DNA of 64,000 nt from a virus: IMG/VR virus record IMGVR_UViG_3300025536_000011; one strand, 5' to 3'. The notes beneath the pieces were generated by a model. It made no database searches. It was not told the origin of the DNA and saw only the letters and a program-made list of their open reading frames with translations. Numbering within the stretch: the stretch's first letter is position 1; each line of letters begins with the position of its first letter. Shown here piece after piece: positions 47,157 to 55,595 of this stretch. Position numbers and translations under genes: made by a program.

Positions 47157-47618
47157 ATGAGCGATAACGCACTAGACCGTCTAACAAGTCTTACTGATGA
47201 ATTGTCAAGTTTACGAGCTAAGGCTGCGACAGAAGGCAAGACTCTACTTAAAGACGCTGCCAAAACAATATTTAGTAATCACCCAAGTCTCCAATATATT
47301 ACTTGGAATCAGGGTGTTCCATCGTGGCGAGACGGCGACCCATGCACCTTTGAAATTCATGATATTTGGGGGCGTGTTGGTGATTGGCCAAAAAATAAAG
47401 ACGGTGACGAAATCTGGCCGAGCGAGCTAGGCGGATATAATGGCGAAGAATTTCATAATGTTGACGGATGTAAGGATCTCGCTCTGATAGATGCATTTGA
47501 AGCTTTCTGTAAGGCTGTCGTGAATCTCGGCGATCTATTAGCTGAGATTCTTGAACAGGATTGCACGGTCTTTATTACTAAAGGTGGTATCGAAACTGAA
47601 TATTACGAGATGAATTGA
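47157..47618 (+). CDS. hypothetical phage protein
   Basis: ITW.QG.PSW.DGDPC.F. Confidence 0.7.
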   Translation: MSDNALDRLTSLTDELSSLRAKAATEGKTLLKDAAKTIFSNHPSLQYITWNQGVPSWRDGDPCTFEIHDIWGRVGDWPKNKDGDEIWPSELGGYNGEEFHNVDGCKDLALIDAFEAFCKAVVNLGDLLAEILEQDCTVFITKGGIETEYYEMN

Positions 47619-47643
47619 TCGCTGGATTGGCCAGCGATAATTA

Positions 47644-48054
47644 ATGATTGATGTTTTACGGAGAAAACAAACAATGCGTAATTGGCTTACAACCGGGATT
47701 GTACTAGCTTCGCTGGCAATTGGTGGCGTTTTTGCGGTCGGTCGTCTTTCGCCGGCTTTTGCGGGCGAAAACGATCACAGTCGAGACGGCGAGATTATGT
47801 TCGTAGATGTTGATACAAATGAGCGAATTCCAAGCTGCCGTCTGCACGGGGCCCAAATTTATCGGCTTGTAAAATCAGATCATATTCAGGTCTTTACGCC
47901 CGATGGCGAGAAACTTTGTAAGTACCGTGTTGAGGATGTAACTTTTACTGCCACGCAGTATTCGAGGCCGGTCGGCGGCTCTTTATTCTGTTGGGGGCCT
48001 CCTGTTAGAGCTACACATGTTCGGATGGTTGTGAGCGTTAAGACAGTCGATTGA
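47644..48054 (+). CDS. exported or membrane-anchored protein
   Basis: N-terminal hydrophobic segment; start probably 47674. Confidence 0.6.
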   Translation: MIDVLRRKQTMRNWLTTGIVLASLAIGGVFAVGRLSPAFAGENDHSRDGEIMFVDVDTNERIPSCRLHGAQIYRLVKSDHIQVFTPDGEKLCKYRVEDVTFTATQYSRPVGGSLFCWGPPVRATHVRMVVSVKTVD

Positions 48055-48118
48055 GCGGCATAGCCGTTCATGTTGGTTAAGCGGTCAGGGTGGCCACCCG
48101 GCCGCTTTAATTTTTAGC

Positions 48119-48147
48119 TTGACACGACCGCTAGGCTGTGGTAAAGT
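48119..48147 (+). promoter_or_regulatory. promoter of the RNA/tRNA cluster
   Basis: TTGACA-17-TAAAGT with TG extension. Confidence 0.7.
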
Positions 48148-48151
48148 ATAG

Positions 48152-48350
48152 GTGAAGTGACTGGCGTGGCCGGACAGCGGCCAATAGTATCTTGCCGAGA
48201 GCCGCTTGGGGTTCGTGGGCATTAAAAGTAAAGCTACCAAGATATGTCGGTGACATCTGGATTTAGTTTAACGGAAGAACGCCGCCCATGAGGTTGGAAA
48301 TGTGGGTTCGAATCCCGCAACGCCAGATTAGACCGATACAGTCACTTCAC
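48152..48350 (+). ncRNA. candidate 199-nt structured RNA with an embedded tRNA-like domain
   Basis: 12-bp closing helix; D arm and canonical T arm at 48257-48326; degenerate anticodon arm, no CCA. Confidence 0.6.
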
Positions 48351-48360
48351 AATTTTAAAT

Positions 48361-48436
48361 GGCCCATTCGTCTAGTGATCTAGGATTCCGCCCTTTCAAG
48401 GCGGCGACCGGGATTTGAATTCCCGATGGGCTACCA
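48361..48436 (+). tRNA. tRNA-Glu(UUC)
   Basis: CCGCC-CTTTCAA-GGCGG; encoded CCA. Confidence 0.9.
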
Positions 48437-48469
48437 TTTTGCAAACTGAATATAGGAATTAGAACATGA

Positions 48470-48545
48470 GCGGGTTTAATGTTTAATGGTAGCATTTCTG
48501 GCTTCCAACCAGACCGTAGGAGTTCGAATCTCCTAACCCGTTCCA
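48470..48545 (+). tRNA. tRNA-Gly(UCC)
   Basis: TCTGG-CTTCCAA-CCAGA; U73; encoded CCA. Confidence 0.92.
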
Positions 48546-48642
48546 TTTTTTACTATCGTAACCTTCGCAACAATGGCCAATCAAGGCTCTCGTCATTTAA
48601 ATGGGCAATTAAAGCCTGTATACATATAGGAGCAAAGCGACT

Positions 48643-49227
48643 ATGAAATTTAAGCTTCGCTGGCTTTGGGCCGCTCATTATCAACAAGAAGTCCCCCAAT
48701 GGACTCGTGATTTTTGTAATTGGGGACCGCGTAAGTGGCTTCGATTTCGGCGTTGGGATATCCAGCGATTCTTTTGGGATTATTTTTATTTGCTGCTCTT
48801 TAAGGGCTACAAAAGCAAAGACATGTGGGGCGTGGATCATGCCATGTTTGCCTGGGTTTTACCTCGATTAAAGGCATTTAAAGCCTTGAATCGAGAGAAA
48901 TATCCCGGCTGGTGTGAGAATGAAGATAACTATGCTCATAGATGGGAACGCAAAGGCGAGTGTACTCTTGAAGCCACGGGTAAATGCACCATTTGTAAAT
49001 TTGATGAACAGCGTGCTGTTCAGAAATGGGAGGGTATTCTTGACGATATGATATTCGCCATTCAAAGTTATGTTGATGGTCATTGGGATGGCCCCGCATT
49101 TGGTGGATATTCTATCGGATTCTGGTATCCTGAAAAGAGTAAATGGATTAGTGGTACTCCCGAACATAAGAGAGCCGAACGCGGCTACGAGTTATTTTGT
49201 AGACATATTTTTTCACTGTGGGATTAG
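48643..49227 (+). CDS. hypothetical phage protein
   Basis: D.W..DH.....LPRLKAFK..W..ILD.MIFA. Confidence 0.7.
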   Translation: MKFKLRWLWAAHYQQEVPQWTRDFCNWGPRKWLRFRRWDIQRFFWDYFYLLLFKGYKSKDMWGVDHAMFAWVLPRLKAFKALNREKYPGWCENEDNYAHRWERKGECTLEATGKCTICKFDEQRAVQKWEGILDDMIFAIQSYVDGHWDGPAFGGYSIGFWYPEKSKWISGTPEHKRAERGYELFCRHIFSLWD

Positions 49228-51822: not shown

Positions 51823-52421
51823 GCGAACCGAATATTCTAAAGCCACAAGTACGCACTCGTTATAACGAGAAACTCGGGAAAACTATGAAGCACTCGGCAA
51901 CGTTTCGATTCAATATTAGCAATCTTAATGACATTGCCCGAGAATTCGGAGTAACAAAAACTAACGAGAAGGCCACCACCATTGTTAAAGGATGCCAGGC
52001 TGTCGGTAACGCCGATATTGCGGCTAAACTGATTGGTCGTCGATTCTTAGTTGATACTTCTGGCCGGGAACTCCCCGCGTGCGTTGGACACTTCGATGAT
52101 TTAACGGTCAGCATAGCCGATAGTTTTAGCCCGACTTATGATAACGAGCTATTCGAGACCGATCTTACCGGATCAGTTTTTGAAGCTATTAAATATAAAC
52201 TATTGCTGAAAGCAATCGCTCTTTATGGCAAGCTTCTGCACGCTAATGCTAAAGATGATAAACTTATGACATTCGAAGTTATGTCAGAGCCAGTCGGCGG
52301 CGGATTAATCGAAGCACTATTCCAGAGTGGCACTTCTGAAACTCCAATTGATATCTCACTTACAGAAATCACAAACTTTAAACTAATGGAGCAGGAAACA
52401 AATGAAGTTTCACCTTCGTAA
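51819..52421 (+). CDS. hypothetical protein upstream of AAA module 2
   Basis: coupled ORF. Confidence 0.65.
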   Translation: MSEPNILKPQVRTRYNEKLGKTMKHSATFRFNISNLNDIAREFGVTKTNEKATTIVKGCQAVGNADIAAKLIGRRFLVDTSGRELPACVGHFDDLTVSIADSFSPTYDNELFETDLTGSVFEAIKYKLLLKAIALYGKLLHANAKDDKLMTFEVMSEPVGGGLIEALFQSGTSETPIDISLTEITNFKLMEQETNEVSPS

Positions 52422-53742
52422 TTTTGTCCACGGGTATGACGAAATCGAGCCATGTATTTTTGCGGCTATTGCATTACGCCGTAATGTTTTCATGAGCGGG
52501 GCTCACGGTATTGGTAAGTCGAGCCTGGGTAAGCTTCTTGCCAAAGCAATCGACGAAACAGGTAATGGCTTCCGTTATTTCTCTGCCGATAAAGCAAATA
52601 TTATCACACTTGGAGGCTTGCCTGATATCGAAGCCACTAAAAAGTCTGGCACAATGGCTTTCGCCAAGACAGATAAATGTCTTTGGGGAGCCAAAATCAT
52701 CCTTGCGGACGAACTTCCGCGAGCAGACAAAGAGCGTCAGAATTATTGGCTTGAGATTTGCGAGGAAAAATCTTTTCAGGGTATCCCAATTGGCTATGAA
52801 ACTTTAATTGCCACTGGCAACGACGTTACTTATAAAGGCAATTTCGATATTGATGCGGCTCTTGCGAGTCGCTTCTTGTTCTGGCTGCCTACTCCTAAGT
52901 TTGATGATATTCAGTCCGAAGATGTCCGAGCAATGATTGCACTTAATATTGGTGATCGTAGAGATATGGCAAAGACGGCTCATGAGATTCGTGACCTTAT
53001 CCAATTAATGCGTGATAAGATTGCAGAATATTTCAAGAATGAAAAGTTAGTTGAGCAGACATCTACATTCATTGGCGTTTTCACTCAATGGATTAAAGAG
53101 AAGATTTCCTATAATAAGGAACTTGCTGAGAATCCTGAATCATATGTCTCTCCGCGAGAGTTCGCTAATCAGCTAATCCATGCTATCTTTGGGCTTAATG
53201 CTTATTATGATCTACATGGTTATGAGAATTCCCTGCAAGAAGCAGGAGCTAAAGCTATTAAGTACGTTATCGAAACTCGTCACGCTGCCGCTGGCGTAGA
53301 GTTTACTAATATTTGCAATATGGCCTGGAAGCAACTACAGGGAATGCTTTGTACGAAACTGGACACGCCCGAGGGCAATCTCAAGTGGCTCTTTGCCGCA
53401 AGTATTACTCCTAGCCAGAAGGTTAGTTTCTGGCGAGAGTATATTGGCGAAGCTGTAAAAGTCCTTGGTGCTGGAGACTTAACCTATATGACGGGCGAAA
53501 CTTTAAACCAGATCCGGGGCGACGATATCCAGCAAATTGGCCCGTTCTGGCACATTATGATGAAGGACGATAAGACAAAGCACATAGGTCGAGAGATCGA
53601 GGGCTTCCTGGTGAGCGAAATCGCACGCAAACTTCTCACCGGCAAAGCTGCTGGTCCTGGTAACGAAGAATTCACTCTTTATAACAAGTATGGTAATGTT
53701 GAAACGCTATCACCTAGCGAGGTAGCAGAAATCCTAAAATGA
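52402..53742 (+). CDS. MoxR/RavA-like AAA+ ATPase (module 2)
   Basis: GAHGIGKS, ILADELPR, IATGN, DAALASRF. Confidence 0.85.
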   Translation: MKFHLRNFVHGYDEIEPCIFAAIALRRNVFMSGAHGIGKSSLGKLLAKAIDETGNGFRYFSADKANIITLGGLPDIEATKKSGTMAFAKTDKCLWGAKIILADELPRADKERQNYWLEICEEKSFQGIPIGYETLIATGNDVTYKGNFDIDAALASRFLFWLPTPKFDDIQSEDVRAMIALNIGDRRDMAKTAHEIRDLIQLMRDKIAEYFKNEKLVEQTSTFIGVFTQWIKEKISYNKELAENPESYVSPREFANQLIHAIFGLNAYYDLHGYENSLQEAGAKAIKYVIETRHAAAGVEFTNICNMAWKQLQGMLCTKLDTPEGNLKWLFAASITPSQKVSFWREYIGEAVKVLGAGDLTYMTGETLNQIRGDDIQQIGPFWHIMMKDDKTKHIGREIEGFLVSEIARKLLTGKAAGPGNEEFTLYNKYGNVETLSPSEVAEILK

Positions 53743-55595
53743 GCGATCTTAGACAAAATATAAATTCTCCCTTCCCTGTATCATATGATGGCACCGCTGC
53801 CGTCAAGTGCGACAAGTGGGGCGTGCCCAACCCAAAGGGCCGTTGGATAACCTGGCAAGTTTTACTACCAGGAGACCCGTTCCCGGCAGTCAAGATTGCG
53901 AAGCTATTCGATCCGCACTCAAAGATTAAGCCGCTAGATTATGATGAAATGCGTAAGCTGGTTGACAATGAGCCGCGTTTTAATCCGAAGCTTTCTAAAT
54001 ATCGGGCTAAGATGCAAGCTAAAATTACTGCCATTTACGGTCGGTTAGGCATAGCTTATACCGATGCACTTAACTCTACTAATGTTTCCAAGGAAATTGA
54101 TACGGCGTGTTGGGGCGTTACTCACGATGGCAAAGAGTTTATCCTGATTAATCCTTACATGCTTATGTTCAAGCGGCAATGGGCGTCATTCTTGCTTCAA
54201 CATGAGTGTATGCATAAGGCGTTTTATCGTGGCCGCGAGAACATGTCGGACCAATTCCTTAAAAATATTGTGCTAGATATCTGCATTAATCGCATCCTGG
54301 CGGCAACACCATCAGGTAAACAGAGTACGTCTTGGCTTAAGTTTTGCGAATGGGTTTATCCTGCCGAGTCTAAGAAAACCGTGCTTGCACTTTGTAACGC
54401 TTCGCTCACGCGAAAAGAACTTAATACTCTTGAGCGTGTGAATCCCGCCTATGTAGTTATTTGGAAAGAAATCTATGAAAAAGAACAGGGGTTTATAAAC
54501 GTAGGCGTCGGCAAGAAAGGTAAGCCGAAGCGTCGTAAGATTGAGGGAATGCTTTCATTCAAAATCAAGGACTTGTCGCCGGACGATCTCTATTTCCGGC
54601 TCAAGCGTCAGCTTACCAAGGAAGATTTAGCGGCTATTAAGAGCCCACTCGAAGGCGGACTAAATCCTTTTGGTCAGCGTGTCAAGGGAATTAATATTGG
54701 CGGCGGTCACGAGATTAAACTTCGTGATGAGATTAACCATACTCCGCCAGAGCAGAGTAATCGTATGGAGAATGCCTTACGTAAAATACTTGTACCTAAA
54801 AGATTCCGTGGTATTGCGTGGCGTCAGTTTTCTGATTGTCGCACGGAATGGTGGGATAAACACCTTGTAGACCCAAAAGATATCCATGACGAGGATCTAG
54901 ATAAGTACGTGCGAAAGATCCGCACAAATAAGATCATGGATAATGTTGTTGGGCGTGTAACGGAGGCATTTAGAGCACAAATTGTTAATCAGATTTATCC
55001 GTATAACCTAAGCGAAGATGGGATTTTACTAGCGGCTCTCGGCTTCCATCCTCCGGTGTTTCCATTTTATCAGAATCTTAATGGCCCGGAAGGCAAACGT
55101 CGAGTCATCGTTATGTTTGATCTTTCGCCAAGCACTTATTATTTCTGGCCTTATATGGCTTACATGACAGATGCCTTTGAAAATTGTATGGATATCACTT
55201 TCGCCAGAAACGCAAAGGGCGATCCCGGCGTCATGACTTTTGCTGGCAGTATTAAGATACTATCACGCGAGGAGTTAAATGCGATGAAGCGTGGTGAATT
55301 ACAAGTCGGCTATTCAACGTGCTTTGATTCAGTAATCGAATACTGCAACGCAGAAGTCAAAACAAGAGACGTGGATACACTTATTATATTTACCGACGGT
55401 GAATCAGATTTATCAGATGCTAACGCGGACGAATTTAATCGTTCGGGCAAGAAGGCGTTTCGAATTTATCTTAATTTGGATGATAAATGCAATCCTAATC
55501 GTAACAAGCCGATTACATCGGCTTTGGACAAGTTAAACGGTACGAGCTACACACTCCTATTAAGACGGTCGGACGCCTTGACAGCACCGACATGA
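53739..55595 (+). CDS. HExxH metallopeptidase-like plus vWA domain protein (module 2)
   Basis: HECMH..NIVLDICIN; FDLSPS, YSTCF, IFTDGE. Confidence 0.75.
   Translation: MSDLRQNINSPFPVSYDGTAAVKCDKWGVPNPKGRWITWQVLLPGDPFPAVKIAKLFDPHSKIKPLDYDEMRKLVDNEPRFNPKLSKYRAKMQAKITAIYGRLGIAYTDALNSTNVSKEIDTACWGVTHDGKEFILINPYMLMFKRQWASFLLQHECMHKAFYRGRENMSDQFLKNIVLDICINRILAATPSGKQSTSWLKFCEWVYPAESKKTVLALCNASLTRKELNTLERVNPAYVVIWKEIYEKEQGFINVGVGKKGKPKRRKIEGMLSFKIKDLSPDDLYFRLKRQLTKEDLAAIKSPLEGGLNPFGQRVKGINIGGGHEIKLRDEINHTPPEQSNRMENALRKILVPKRFRGIAWRQFSDCRTEWWDKHLVDPKDIHDEDLDKYVRKIRTNKIMDNVVGRVTEAFRAQIVNQIYPYNLSEDGILLAALGFHPPVFPFYQNLNGPEGKRRVIVMFDLSPSTYYFWPYMAYMTDAFENCMDITFARNAKGDPGVMTFAGSIKILSREELNAMKRGELQVGYSTCFDSVIEYCNAEVKTRDVDTLIIFTDGESDLSDANADEFNRSGKKAFRIYLNLDDKCNPNRNKPITSALDKLNGTSYTLLLRRSDALTAPT

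What the first reader, a model, noticed from the sequence alone, without database searches (positions are those of the whole stretch)
48152..48350. 199-nt RNA carrying a tRNA-shaped domain on an extended stem
Seen: just after promoter 48119, GTGAAGTGACTG (48152-63) pairs perfectly with CAGTCACTTCAC (48339-50). Inside are a hairpin TGGCC/GGCCA, a helix TATCTTG/CAAGATA, and an arm TGTCGGT/ACCGATA then ATCTGG/CCAGAT capped by a cloverleaf with D arm GTTT-AACGGAA-GAAC and T arm GTGGG-TTCGAAT-CCCGC. The anticodon arm is collapsed (CCGCC-CATGA-GGTTGG), the acceptor is imperfect and there is no CCA. It heads the tRNA-Glu/Gly cluster. Known: bacterial Y RNAs (YrlA) and tmRNA mimic tRNA but with different topology. 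Inference: a tRNA-elbow mimic that may decoy anticodon nucleases or recruit tRNA-processing enzymes; a decaying tRNA gene would not be expected to keep 12+7+7 bp of outer helices.
Basis: partly seen in the sequence, partly recalled or inferred. Interest (0 to 1): 0.8.

Follow-up and report, generated by a model that had tools for sequence, protein, structure and literature searches.

The report
Phage scaffold RNA capped by tRNA
A large uncultured phage makes a roughly 200-base folded RNA at the head of its tRNA operon; the base of the fold is conserved in a sister phage, but its tip, here a complete non-decoding tRNA body, is a different structure there, so this is a new modular RNA of unknown job and not a decaying tRNA gene.

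Summary

**What it is**
- It is single-copy and has no credible ORF.
- It starts just after a conserved extended -10 promoter and ends 10 nt before tRNA-Glu.
- Rfam assigns no family. The tip scores 27.4 bits against the tRNA model, just under the threshold of 29.

**The sister phage**
- I found one homologue, in a 181-kb sister phage.
- The scaffold is 87% identical there, against 64-78% for neighbouring genes.
- All 44 scaffold base pairs are kept. Six changed on one side to G·U or G-C, and three changed on both sides.
- This shows a plus-strand RNA under structural selection, probably with a pseudoknot.
- The tRNA-shaped cap is not conserved; the sister carries two unrelated hairpins on the same arm.

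**The cap**
- It is a whole tRNA body with an intact elbow core, a 6-nt "anticodon" loop and no free acceptor end.
- Its nearest kin are the sister phage's tRNA-His and an anticodon-less tRNA look-alike in a more distant relative.

**Excluded in the 75%-complete genome:** Ro60, reverse transcriptase and the YrlA motif.

**Function (inferred):** a stable RNA released by tRNA processing, with a conserved core and a swappable tRNA-shaped handle.

Earlier notes of this scan report anticodon-less phage tRNA look-alikes on other DNA. They do not report this scaffold.

The parts
48119..48147 (+). Sigma-70-type promoter: -35 TTGACA, 17-nt spacer, extended -10 TGnTAAAGT
   Evidence: Consensus scan gives 10 of 12 matches plus TG. 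It is conserved in the sister phage as TTGACA...TGCTATAGT.
48152..48163 (+). P1, 5' strand of the 12-bp closing helix
   Evidence: Pairs perfectly with 48339-48350. In L001 four positions changed on the 3' strand, all to G.U or U.G.
48167..48183 (+). P2 hairpin (6 bp, loop GACAG)
   Evidence: Present in the MFE fold. Conserved in L001 with one C-G to U.G change and an identical loop.
48193..48221 (+). P3 (48193-96 / 48218-21) enclosing hairpin P4 (48199-203 / 48210-14)
   Evidence: RNAalifold consensus. All pairs are kept in L001, with one G.U to G-C change.
48205..48241 (+). Probable H-type pseudoknot: P4 loop CUUGG (48205-09) with CCAAG (48237-41). The span includes the conserved A-rich linker 48222-48236.
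   Evidence: In L001 the pair is CUUAG with CUAAG. G-C became A-U at 48208/48238, a change on both sides. One covarying pair only, so this is suggestive and not proven.
48245..48251 (+). P5, 5' strand of the long arm (pairs with 48332-48338)
   Evidence: Seven pairs, identical in L001.
48255..48260 (+). P6, 5' strand (pairs with 48323-48328). It continues into the acceptor-like helix of the cap.
   Evidence: TCT/AGA is conserved. The distal GG/CC is AA/UU in L001, two pairs changed on both sides.
48257..48327 (+). tRNA-derived cap: an acceptor-like helix with a bulge, D arm, 5-bp stem with 6-nt loop, 4-nt variable loop, canonical T arm. No free 3' end and no CCA.
   Evidence: Rfam tRNA model scores 27.4 bits against a threshold of 29. 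ARAGORN calls it only at relaxed threshold, as tRNA-?(His|Ser) with a 6-nt loop. Best matches are L001 tRNA-His and the L004 tRNA-like RNA.
48323..48350 (+). 3' strands of P6, P5 and P1
   Evidence: 78% identical to L001, and every change keeps pairing.
48351..48360 (+). 10-nt spacer to tRNA-Glu. It holds no promoter or terminator, which implies co-transcription.
   Evidence: Sequence. The promoter and terminator scan finds nothing between the RNA and tRNA-Glu.
48361..48436 (+). tRNA-Glu(UUC) with encoded CCA. RNase P cleavage at its 5' end would set the 3' end of the scaffold RNA.
   Evidence: ARAGORN and Rfam at 51 bits. The processing step is inferred.
48470..48545 (+). tRNA-Gly(UCC), second tRNA of the operon
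   Evidence: ARAGORN and Rfam at 39 bits.

Best explanation
This is a genuine, lineage-specific, plus-strand non-coding RNA of about 200 nt. It is the first product of a transcript that also carries tRNA-Glu, tRNA-Gly and probably the downstream genes.

**Scaffold.** The conserved scaffold has these parts:
- closing helix P1;
- hairpin P2;
- a P3/P4 domain that probably forms a pseudoknot with an A-rich linker;
- a long arm, P5/P6.

**Cap.** The tip of the arm is exchangeable. In this phage it is a whole tRNA body grafted on through its acceptor helix. The elbow (D loop, T loop and core tertiary nucleotides) is intact. The anticodon loop is one base short, and there is no free acceptor end. 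It therefore cannot decode or be charged.

**Proposed working (inferred).**
1. RNase P cuts at the 5' end of tRNA-Glu, 10 nt downstream.
2. Exonucleases trim the trailer back to P1.
3. Both ends are then locked in a helix, and the RNA accumulates as a stable species.
4. The conserved core binds a constant partner, a phage or host protein.
5. The cap is a swappable handle. Here it is an L-shaped tRNA mimic that engages proteins which read the tRNA elbow and acceptor/T-arm stack. Candidates are RNase P, T-loop modification enzymes, or a tRNA-directed host nuclease.

This logic resembles that of Y RNAs, where a constant protein-binding stem carries a variable effector module.

**Shown:** the RNA-level structure, its conservation, the promoter, the tRNA origin of the cap, and the non-conservation of the cap.

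**Inferred:** expression, processing, stability, and any partner.
For: - The fold is better than chance: z = -4.77, and 0 of 200 shuffles fold as well.
- A sister phage (L001/L002) has the same element at the same place, after the same promoter.
- The scaffold 5' part is 87% identical, against 64-78% for eight neighbouring genes. The cap is 41% identical, which is no better than unrelated sequence.
- All 88 cells of the 44 scaffold pairs are standard pairs in both sequences. Six pairs changed on one side and three on both sides, with no disruption. Versions with partners slid by 1-3 columns pair only 28-40%.
- The four changes in P1 are C to U or A to G on the 3' strand. They preserve pairing only in the plus-strand RNA.
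- It is single-copy and has no ORF above 51 aa on either strand.
- The cap scores 27.4 bits on the Rfam tRNA model. Relaxed ARAGORN draws a full cloverleaf with a 6-nt loop.
- By my own numbering on the sequence, U8, A14, A15:U48, G18, G19, A21, G26:A44, U54, U55, C56, A58 and G53:C61 are all present.
- Compared with the L001 tRNA-His, the D and T arms differ only at variable loop positions or by G.U to G-C changes.
- No terminator or promoter separates the RNA from tRNA-Glu.
- Other phages carry anticodon-less tRNA look-alikes, one of them directly after a promoter inside a tRNA cluster.
Against: - Only two homologous sequences exist, so covariation statistics are weak: 51 of 500 shuffles reach the observed counts.
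- No transcript data were found, so expression, ends and stability are untested.
- The cap is absent from the only relative, so it may be a neutral passenger.
- By nearest-neighbour energies the cloverleaf is not the minimum-energy fold of the cap: -11.1 against -19.4 kcal/mol.
- More distant relatives with the same gene neighbourhood lack the scaffold, so it is not essential to this phage group.
- No candidate protein partner was identified. The neighbours are ligases, beta-propellers, an HD phosphohydrolase and a MoxR/vWA pair.
Confidence: 0.45

Rival explanations
1. It is a cis-acting leader of the tRNA/early-gene operon. The conserved scaffold would act on the transcript or on RNA polymerase: as a processing platform, a 5' stabiliser, or a put-like anti-terminator that lets transcription run through the tRNAs into the downstream genes. 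The tRNA-shaped cap would be a dead tRNA that landed in a tolerant hairpin tip.
For: - The RNA is the very first transcribed element after the only promoter found in 47600-48800. It is followed without a gap by tRNAs and then by genes.
- In L001 the tRNA-like gene after the scaffold is followed at once by an RBS and an ORF.
- The cap is not conserved, as expected for a passenger.
Against: - Loop and junction sequences of the scaffold are highly conserved, at 87%, not only its helices. That points to a specific ligand.
- The tRNAs between the leader and the ORFs would be excised, cutting the leader off the mRNA.
- The elbow nucleotides of the cap are all intact, while only the decoding part is damaged.
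- No match to any known leader or anti-terminator family.
Confidence: 0.3
2. It is a decaying tRNA pseudogene whose flanks happen to pair, with no function.
For: The cap falls just under the Rfam tRNA threshold. It has a one-base deletion in the anticodon loop and a bulged acceptor helix. Standard ARAGORN does not call it.
Against: The flanking helices and a further 100 nt are conserved above the level of neighbouring genes, with only pairing-compatible changes. The promoter is also conserved. Fold z = -4.77.
Confidence: 0.05
3. It is a bacterial-type Y RNA (Yrn1/YrlA-like) that binds a Ro60 (Rsr) protein through its terminal stem and tethers it to a partner through the tRNA-like module.
For: The overall design matches: a long terminal stem plus a tRNA-like module. 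D. radiodurans Yrn1 has the same D, 'anticodon' arm, T order and a 6-nt loop (PMC4201824). RNA-repair genes (two RNA-ligase families in this phage group) lie nearby.
Against: - No TROVE domain in the 177-kb record, while the control genomes gave hits.
- The nearby vWA protein is a DUF2201 metallopeptidase-vWA, not TROVE-vWA.
- No GNCGAAN0-1G motif near the 5' end (sequence; motif from PMC4201824).
- The RNA is about 200 nt, whereas Y RNAs are 80-130 nt.
- The sister phage's copy has no tRNA-like module.
Confidence: 0.05
4. It is a retron-like msr/msd RNA, with terminal inverted repeats, short hairpins and a long variable hairpin. Or it is a DNA-level inverted repeat such as an origin or a mobile-element end.
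For: A terminal 12-bp inverted repeat, two short hairpins, and a long arm whose tip varies between relatives.
Against: No reverse transcriptase in the record, while the control genomes gave hits. The G.U-only substitutions in P1 keep pairing in plus-strand RNA but would be mismatches in DNA or in minus-strand RNA. It is single-copy.
Confidence: 0.03

Closest known systems
Bacterial Y RNAs: D. radiodurans Yrn1 and the YrlA family (PMC4201824)
   Same: An RNA whose paired 5' and 3' ends form a long stem carrying a tRNA-like module with canonical T and D features. Yrn1 also has the D, 'anticodon' arm, T order and a 6-nt loop. The logic is modular: constant stem, variable effector module. Y RNAs also occur in phages.
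   Different: No Ro60/TROVE gene in the record and no GNCGAA motif. This RNA is about twice as long and has an extra pseudoknotted domain. YrlA is circularly permuted (T, closed acceptor hairpin, D), whereas this cap is not. In this family the tRNA-like module is not conserved.
Phage T4 RNAC/RNAD (species 1 and 2 RNAs of the tRNA region)
   Same: Small stable phage RNAs encoded with the tRNA genes, of unknown function (PMC9697503). That they are produced with the tRNA-processing machinery is from my own knowledge.
   Different: No sequence relation was tested or expected. The T4 RNAs are shorter and, from my own knowledge, are not described as a scaffold with a grafted full tRNA body.
Anticodon-less tRNA look-alikes of phages
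   Same: They keep the acceptor, D and T parts of a tRNA and have lost a decoding loop. They sit in or beside tRNA clusters. Examples seen here are L004:1055-1127 and L034:12104-12175. Earlier notes of this scan (e1-3299259, e1-3439980, e1-3837414, e1-1908529) describe such RNAs elsewhere.
   Different: Those are free-standing tRNA-sized genes, some ending in CCA. Here the module has no free ends and is mounted on a conserved 130-nt scaffold.
tmRNA and viral 3' tRNA-like structures
   Same: tRNA mimicry embedded in a larger RNA.
   Different: In those RNAs the mimic is formed by, or ends at, the RNA's own 3' end and is aminoacylated. Here the acceptor end is closed into a helix. ARAGORN finds no tmRNA.
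Spacer-derived RNAs of tRNA operons (for example E. coli 3'ETS-leuZ; from my own knowledge)
   Same: Functional small RNAs released as by-products of tRNA-operon processing.
   Different: Those are short, unstructured sponges from a 3' spacer. This is a large structured 5' element with its own conserved fold.

Membership tests
tRNA (Rfam RF00005) | Score at or above the family's gathering threshold | tested here: not met
   27.4 bits against 29. The match covers model positions 6-65 only. Nothing is reported at gathering threshold.
tRNA (Rfam RF00005) | 7-nt anticodon loop on a 5-bp stem | tested here: not met
   6-nt loop CAUGAG and a C.U mismatch in the stem.
tRNA (Rfam RF00005) | 7-bp acceptor stem with a free 3' end (discriminator plus CCA, encoded or addable) | tested here: not met
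   The acceptor-like helix carries an A/CG bulge. It runs on into P6, P5 and P1 with no single-stranded 3' end.
tRNA (Rfam RF00005) | D-loop/T-loop elbow nucleotides (G18 G19, U54 U55 C56, A58, U8:A14) | tested here: met
   All are present in the cmscan alignment and in the sequence.
YrlA / bacterial Y RNA | Encoded within a few kb of a Ro60 (TROVE) gene on the same strand | tested here: not met
   No TROVE match in the 177-kb record, while the control genomes gave hits. The nearby vWA protein belongs to the DUF2201 family. The record is about 75% complete, so absence is not absolute.
YrlA / bacterial Y RNA | GNCGAAN0-1G motif near the 5' end (PMC4201824) | tested here: not met
   Absent from 48152-48260 on reading the sequence. 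Motif taken.
YrlA / bacterial Y RNA | Module order T arm, closed acceptor-like hairpin, D arm | tested here: not met
   The order here is D arm, 'anticodon' arm, T arm, as in a normal tRNA and in Yrn1.
tmRNA | tRNA-like domain formed by the RNA's ends, plus a tag reading frame | tested here: not met
   ARAGORN, which also looks for tmRNA, finds none in the window. No tmRNA family hit in Rfam.
Retron msr/msd RNA | Adjacent reverse transcriptase gene | tested here: not met
   No RVT_1 match in the record, while the control genomes gave hits.
Any Rfam 15 family (for the scaffold) | Covariance-model match | tested here: not met
   Nothing plausible up to E = 10 in the window copy or the L001 copy.
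T4 RNAC/RNAD-type stable RNAs | Accumulates as a stable processed RNA during infection | not testable with these tools
   No RNA run was listed for this DNA.

The most novel reading that the evidence does not exclude
The RNA is a natural display scaffold. A constant, pseudoknotted, end-locked core carries interchangeable bait modules on a long arm. The bait is a non-cleavable, non-chargeable tRNA mimic in this phage and a different two-hairpin module in its sister. Each bait would be tuned to trap or redirect a different host factor, for example a tRNA-directed defence nuclease or a tRNA-processing enzyme. That would make it an RNA-based, modular counter-defence platform.
Probability: 0.15. 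Interest if true: 0.85.

Novelty: new variant of a known kind. Interest (0 to 1): 0.6.

Why it matters
Phage tRNA regions are turning out to hold many RNAs that look like tRNAs but cannot decode. None of them has a known function, including T4 RNAC and RNAD after fifty years.

This case adds a new architecture: a full tRNA body mounted on a conserved, probably pseudoknotted scaffold whose tip differs between sister phages. It gives a clean experimental handle, because core and cap can be separated and swapped. That lets one ask whether tRNA mimicry in phages serves as bait, as a processing signal or as a stabiliser.

It also shows that standard tRNA finders and Rfam miss this class.

Tried and rejected
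**Searches for further homologues that found nothing**
- blastn of the region against 50,697 phage records found only the tRNA-Glu and tRNA-Gly parts. The cap alone gave only generic T-arm hits.
- Exact-pattern scans for the cap and for two scaffold motifs found nothing in IMG/VR, JGI metagenomes or GTDB genomes. The two hits were chance matches: the covariance model gave no hit on them, and on reading their sequences they look unrelated.
- Single-protein locus searches with three neighbouring proteins found nothing in IMG/VR.

**Relatives that could not settle the question**
- A third, closer relative (Logan SRR21686414; L003 and L006) breaks off just before and resumes after the RNA locus. 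90%-identity cluster look-ups of ten neighbouring proteins gave no further contigs.
- More distant relatives (L004, L007, L008) have no scaffold within 10 kb of the shared genes.

**Sequencing runs**
- No RNA holder was listed.
- Laying contigs of the second DNA run gave only a 227-nt identical piece upstream and short tRNA-Glu pieces.

**Readings rejected**
- Ro60 partner.
- Retron.
- Thg1 link: present in relative L007 but absent from this record.
- Small ORF.
- A specific tRNA-His origin for the D arm: the same D arm occurs in phage tRNA-Trp, Cys, Gln and Arg. The His link rests only on overall similarity and the shared UGAG loop residues.

**No paralogue found**
- A paralogue in the genome.
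- A counterpart of the L001 cap anywhere in the genome or loci.

Full report
**Where it lies.** The window is the reverse strand of bases 127-64126 of a 177-kb uncultured phage record. CheckV rates the record about 75% complete. Its reads come from a subsurface metagenome. The region is an early-type block of plus-strand genes:
- a DNA ligase, a PF09414 RNA ligase and an HD phosphohydrolase;
- two proteins that the ESM Atlas models as beta-propellers;
- a MoxR ATPase and a DUF2201 metallopeptidase-vWA protein;
- seven tRNA genes in the window.

**The observation.** The 199 nt fold at -77.1 kcal/mol against -56.8 +/- 4.3 for shuffles, z = -4.77. A promoter, TTGACA-17-TGnTAAAGT, ends at 48147. 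The transcript therefore starts at about 48153-48155, inside the first bases of P1. Ten bases after P1 comes tRNA-Glu, then tRNA-Gly. No promoter or terminator lies in between. The element is single-copy in the genome. No ORF longer than 51 codons overlaps it on either strand.

**Known families.** At gathering thresholds Rfam 15 reports only the neighbouring tRNAs. With permissive settings, the only meaningful extra hit is the tRNA model on 48262-48320, at 27.4 bits against a threshold of 29, covering model positions 6-65. ARAGORN misses it at default settings. At a relaxed threshold it draws a complete cloverleaf, 48257-48327, labelled tRNA-?(His|Ser), with a 6-nt loop.

**The cap as a tRNA.** By my own numbering on the sequence, the cap has U8, A14, A15:U48, G18 G19, A21, G26:A44, G53:C61, U54 U55 C56 and A58. 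The whole elbow and core are therefore intact. Three things are wrong for a working tRNA:
- the loop CAUGAG is one base short;
- the anticodon stem has a C.U mismatch;
- the acceptor helix has an A/CG bulge and runs on into P6, P5 and P1, leaving no free 3' end and no CCA.

**A homologue.** Pattern and blast searches found none. The 194-aa protein downstream has one close relative, at 64% identity, on a 181-kb Logan contig (L001; L002 is the same sequence). The gene order matches the window. At the corresponding place sits the same promoter followed by a 189-nt RNA, L001:9285-9473, which folds with z = -3.6.

Identity differs sharply along the element:

| Segment | Identity to L001 |
|---|---|
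| 5' 110 nt of the scaffold | 87% |
| 3' 27 nt of the scaffold | 78% |
| Eight neighbouring genes | 64-78% |
| Cap | 41% (chance level for this kind of alignment) |

**Structure conservation.** On a structure of seven helices and 44 pairs, all 88 cells are standard pairs in both sequences. Six pairs changed on one side and three on both. Versions with the 3' partners slid by 1-3 columns pair only 28-40%.
- The four changes in P1 are all C to U or A to G on the 3' strand. They keep G.U or U.G pairing in plus-strand RNA, but would be mismatches in DNA or in a minus-strand RNA.
- The distal two pairs of P6 changed from GG/CC to AA/UU.
- With two sequences the shuffle control is weak: 51 of 500 shuffles reach the observed counts. 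No single statistic is decisive. The pattern as a whole is what one expects of a selected RNA fold.

**A correction to the fold.** The P4 loop CUUGG (48205-09) can instead pair with CCAAG (48237-41). In L001 these read CUUAG and CUAAG, a change on both sides. This would be an H-type pseudoknot, with the invariant A-rich stretch 48222-48236 as the long crossing strand. It rests on one covarying pair and needs probing.

**The cap is not conserved.** In L001 the same arm, with P5 identical and P6 kept, ends in 53 nt that fold as two plain hairpins. That module has no tRNA hit in Rfam even at E = 10. It has no counterpart anywhere in the window's genome or the fetched loci. So the family's conserved function lies in the scaffold, and the tRNA body is an exchangeable or optional tip. 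Which state is ancestral cannot be told from two sequences.

**Origin of the cap.** Among all tRNAs of the genome and the fetched relatives, two match the cap best.
- *The tRNA-His(GUG) of L001.* Against it, the 5' acceptor strand plus D arm and the T arm are close. The loops read UUGUGAG and C-AUGAG. [quoted passage not shown]
- *An uncalled tRNA-like RNA in a more distant relative, L004:1055-1127.* It has a perfect 7-bp acceptor, CCA, almost the same D arm, and a 4-nt 'anticodon' loop.

The window's genome has no tRNA-His. The D arm itself is not diagnostic, because a scan of IMG/VR found it in phage tRNA-Trp, Cys, Gln and Arg. I therefore call the cap tRNA-derived, possibly from tRNA-His, and no more than that.

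The same scan found another anticodon-less look-alike, identical in three viral contigs. It sits directly after a promoter inside a tRNA cluster. Earlier notes of this scan describe such RNAs in other phages. Non-decoding tRNA bodies are thus recurrent in phages. What is new here is the mounting on a conserved scaffold.

**Distribution.** The scaffold was not found in three more distant relatives that share the ligase and MoxR neighbourhood (L004, L007, L008). A third, closer relative exists (MoxR 90% identical), but its contigs stop just short of the locus on both sides.

**Rivals tested.**
- *Y RNA.* The design is similar, and Yrn1 even shares the D, 'anticodon' arm, T order and 6-nt loop (PMC4201824). 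But there is no TROVE gene, the nearby vWA protein is DUF2201-type, the GNCGAA motif is absent, and the sister copy lacks the tRNA-like module.
- *Retron.* There is no reverse transcriptase.
- *tmRNA.* ARAGORN makes no call.
- *Pseudogene with chance helices.* The conservation pattern contradicts it.
- *Cis-acting leader (processing platform, stabiliser or anti-terminator).* This remains a serious rival, because the RNA is the first element of a transcript that continues into tRNAs and genes.

**Mechanism.** What is shown: a conserved promoter, a conserved plus-strand fold, a tRNA-derived and non-decoding cap, and its exchange in the sister phage.

What I infer:
1. RNase P cleavage at the 5' end of tRNA-Glu frees the RNA.
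2. P1 locks both ends, so the RNA is stable.
3. The conserved core binds a constant partner.
4. The cap offers an L-shaped handle to proteins that read the tRNA elbow and the acceptor/T-arm stack.

I give this about 45%, the cis-leader reading about 30%, and the rest small shares. No expression data could be found.

**Verdict.** This is a real and previously uncatalogued phage RNA with two known members. It is a new variant within the known kind of tRNA-mimicking non-coding RNAs. Its interpretation is partly supported, with the important revision that the tRNA-like domain is the variable part and not the conserved one.

Noticed in passing
window:31212-31339: A second non-canonical tRNA-like RNA after its own promoter and before tRNA-Leu. 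It has a 7-bp acceptor, an encoded CCA, an 8-bp stem with a 17-nt loop in the anticodon position, a long extra arm, and T loop UGCAAUU. It folds with z = -3.1 and has no Rfam hit.
   Followed up: partly
L001:9485-9560: In the sister phage the gene after the scaffold RNA is a full cloverleaf with anticodon UUC (Glu) and an ACCA end, but with non-canonical D and T loops. Its T arm, GCGGG-GGCGGCA-CCCGC, resembles that of alphaproteobacterial tmRNA. Neither ARAGORN nor the Rfam tRNA model calls it.
   Followed up: partly
L001:9738-9760: Only the first 13 or so bases of the tRNA-Gly gene survive in the sister phage. Small ORFs, one of them Cys-rich, take the place of the rest.
   Followed up: no
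L004:1055-1127: A free-standing tRNA-like RNA with a perfect acceptor, CCA and a 4-nt 'anticodon' loop. Its 5' strand overlaps the last codons and the stop codon of the RNA ligase gene.
   Followed up: partly
L034:12104-12175 (identical in L012 and L027): An anticodon-less tRNA look-alike directly after a TTGACA/TATAGT promoter, inside a tRNA cluster of a 214-kb viral contig. It has a 7-bp acceptor, the same D arm as the window's cap, a collapsed middle arm, T loop CUCUAAU and no CCA.
   Followed up: partly
window:44122-46124 and 52402-55595: Two adjacent proteins are modelled as 7-bladed beta-propellers. With the MoxR ATPase (which also hits Pfam bpMoxR) and a DUF2201 metallopeptidase-vWA protein, they look like the parts of a MoxR-vWA-beta-propeller system spread over this block.
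   Followed up: partly
L001:14267-14884 and L006:1622-2212: Relatives carry an HNH_3 endonuclease gene inserted between the MoxR and vWA genes. These two genes are adjacent in the window.
   Followed up: no
L007:17392-18171: A more distant relative encodes a Thg1-family protein (a 3'-5' nucleotidyltransferase that acts on tRNA-His). The window's genome has none.
   Followed up: partly
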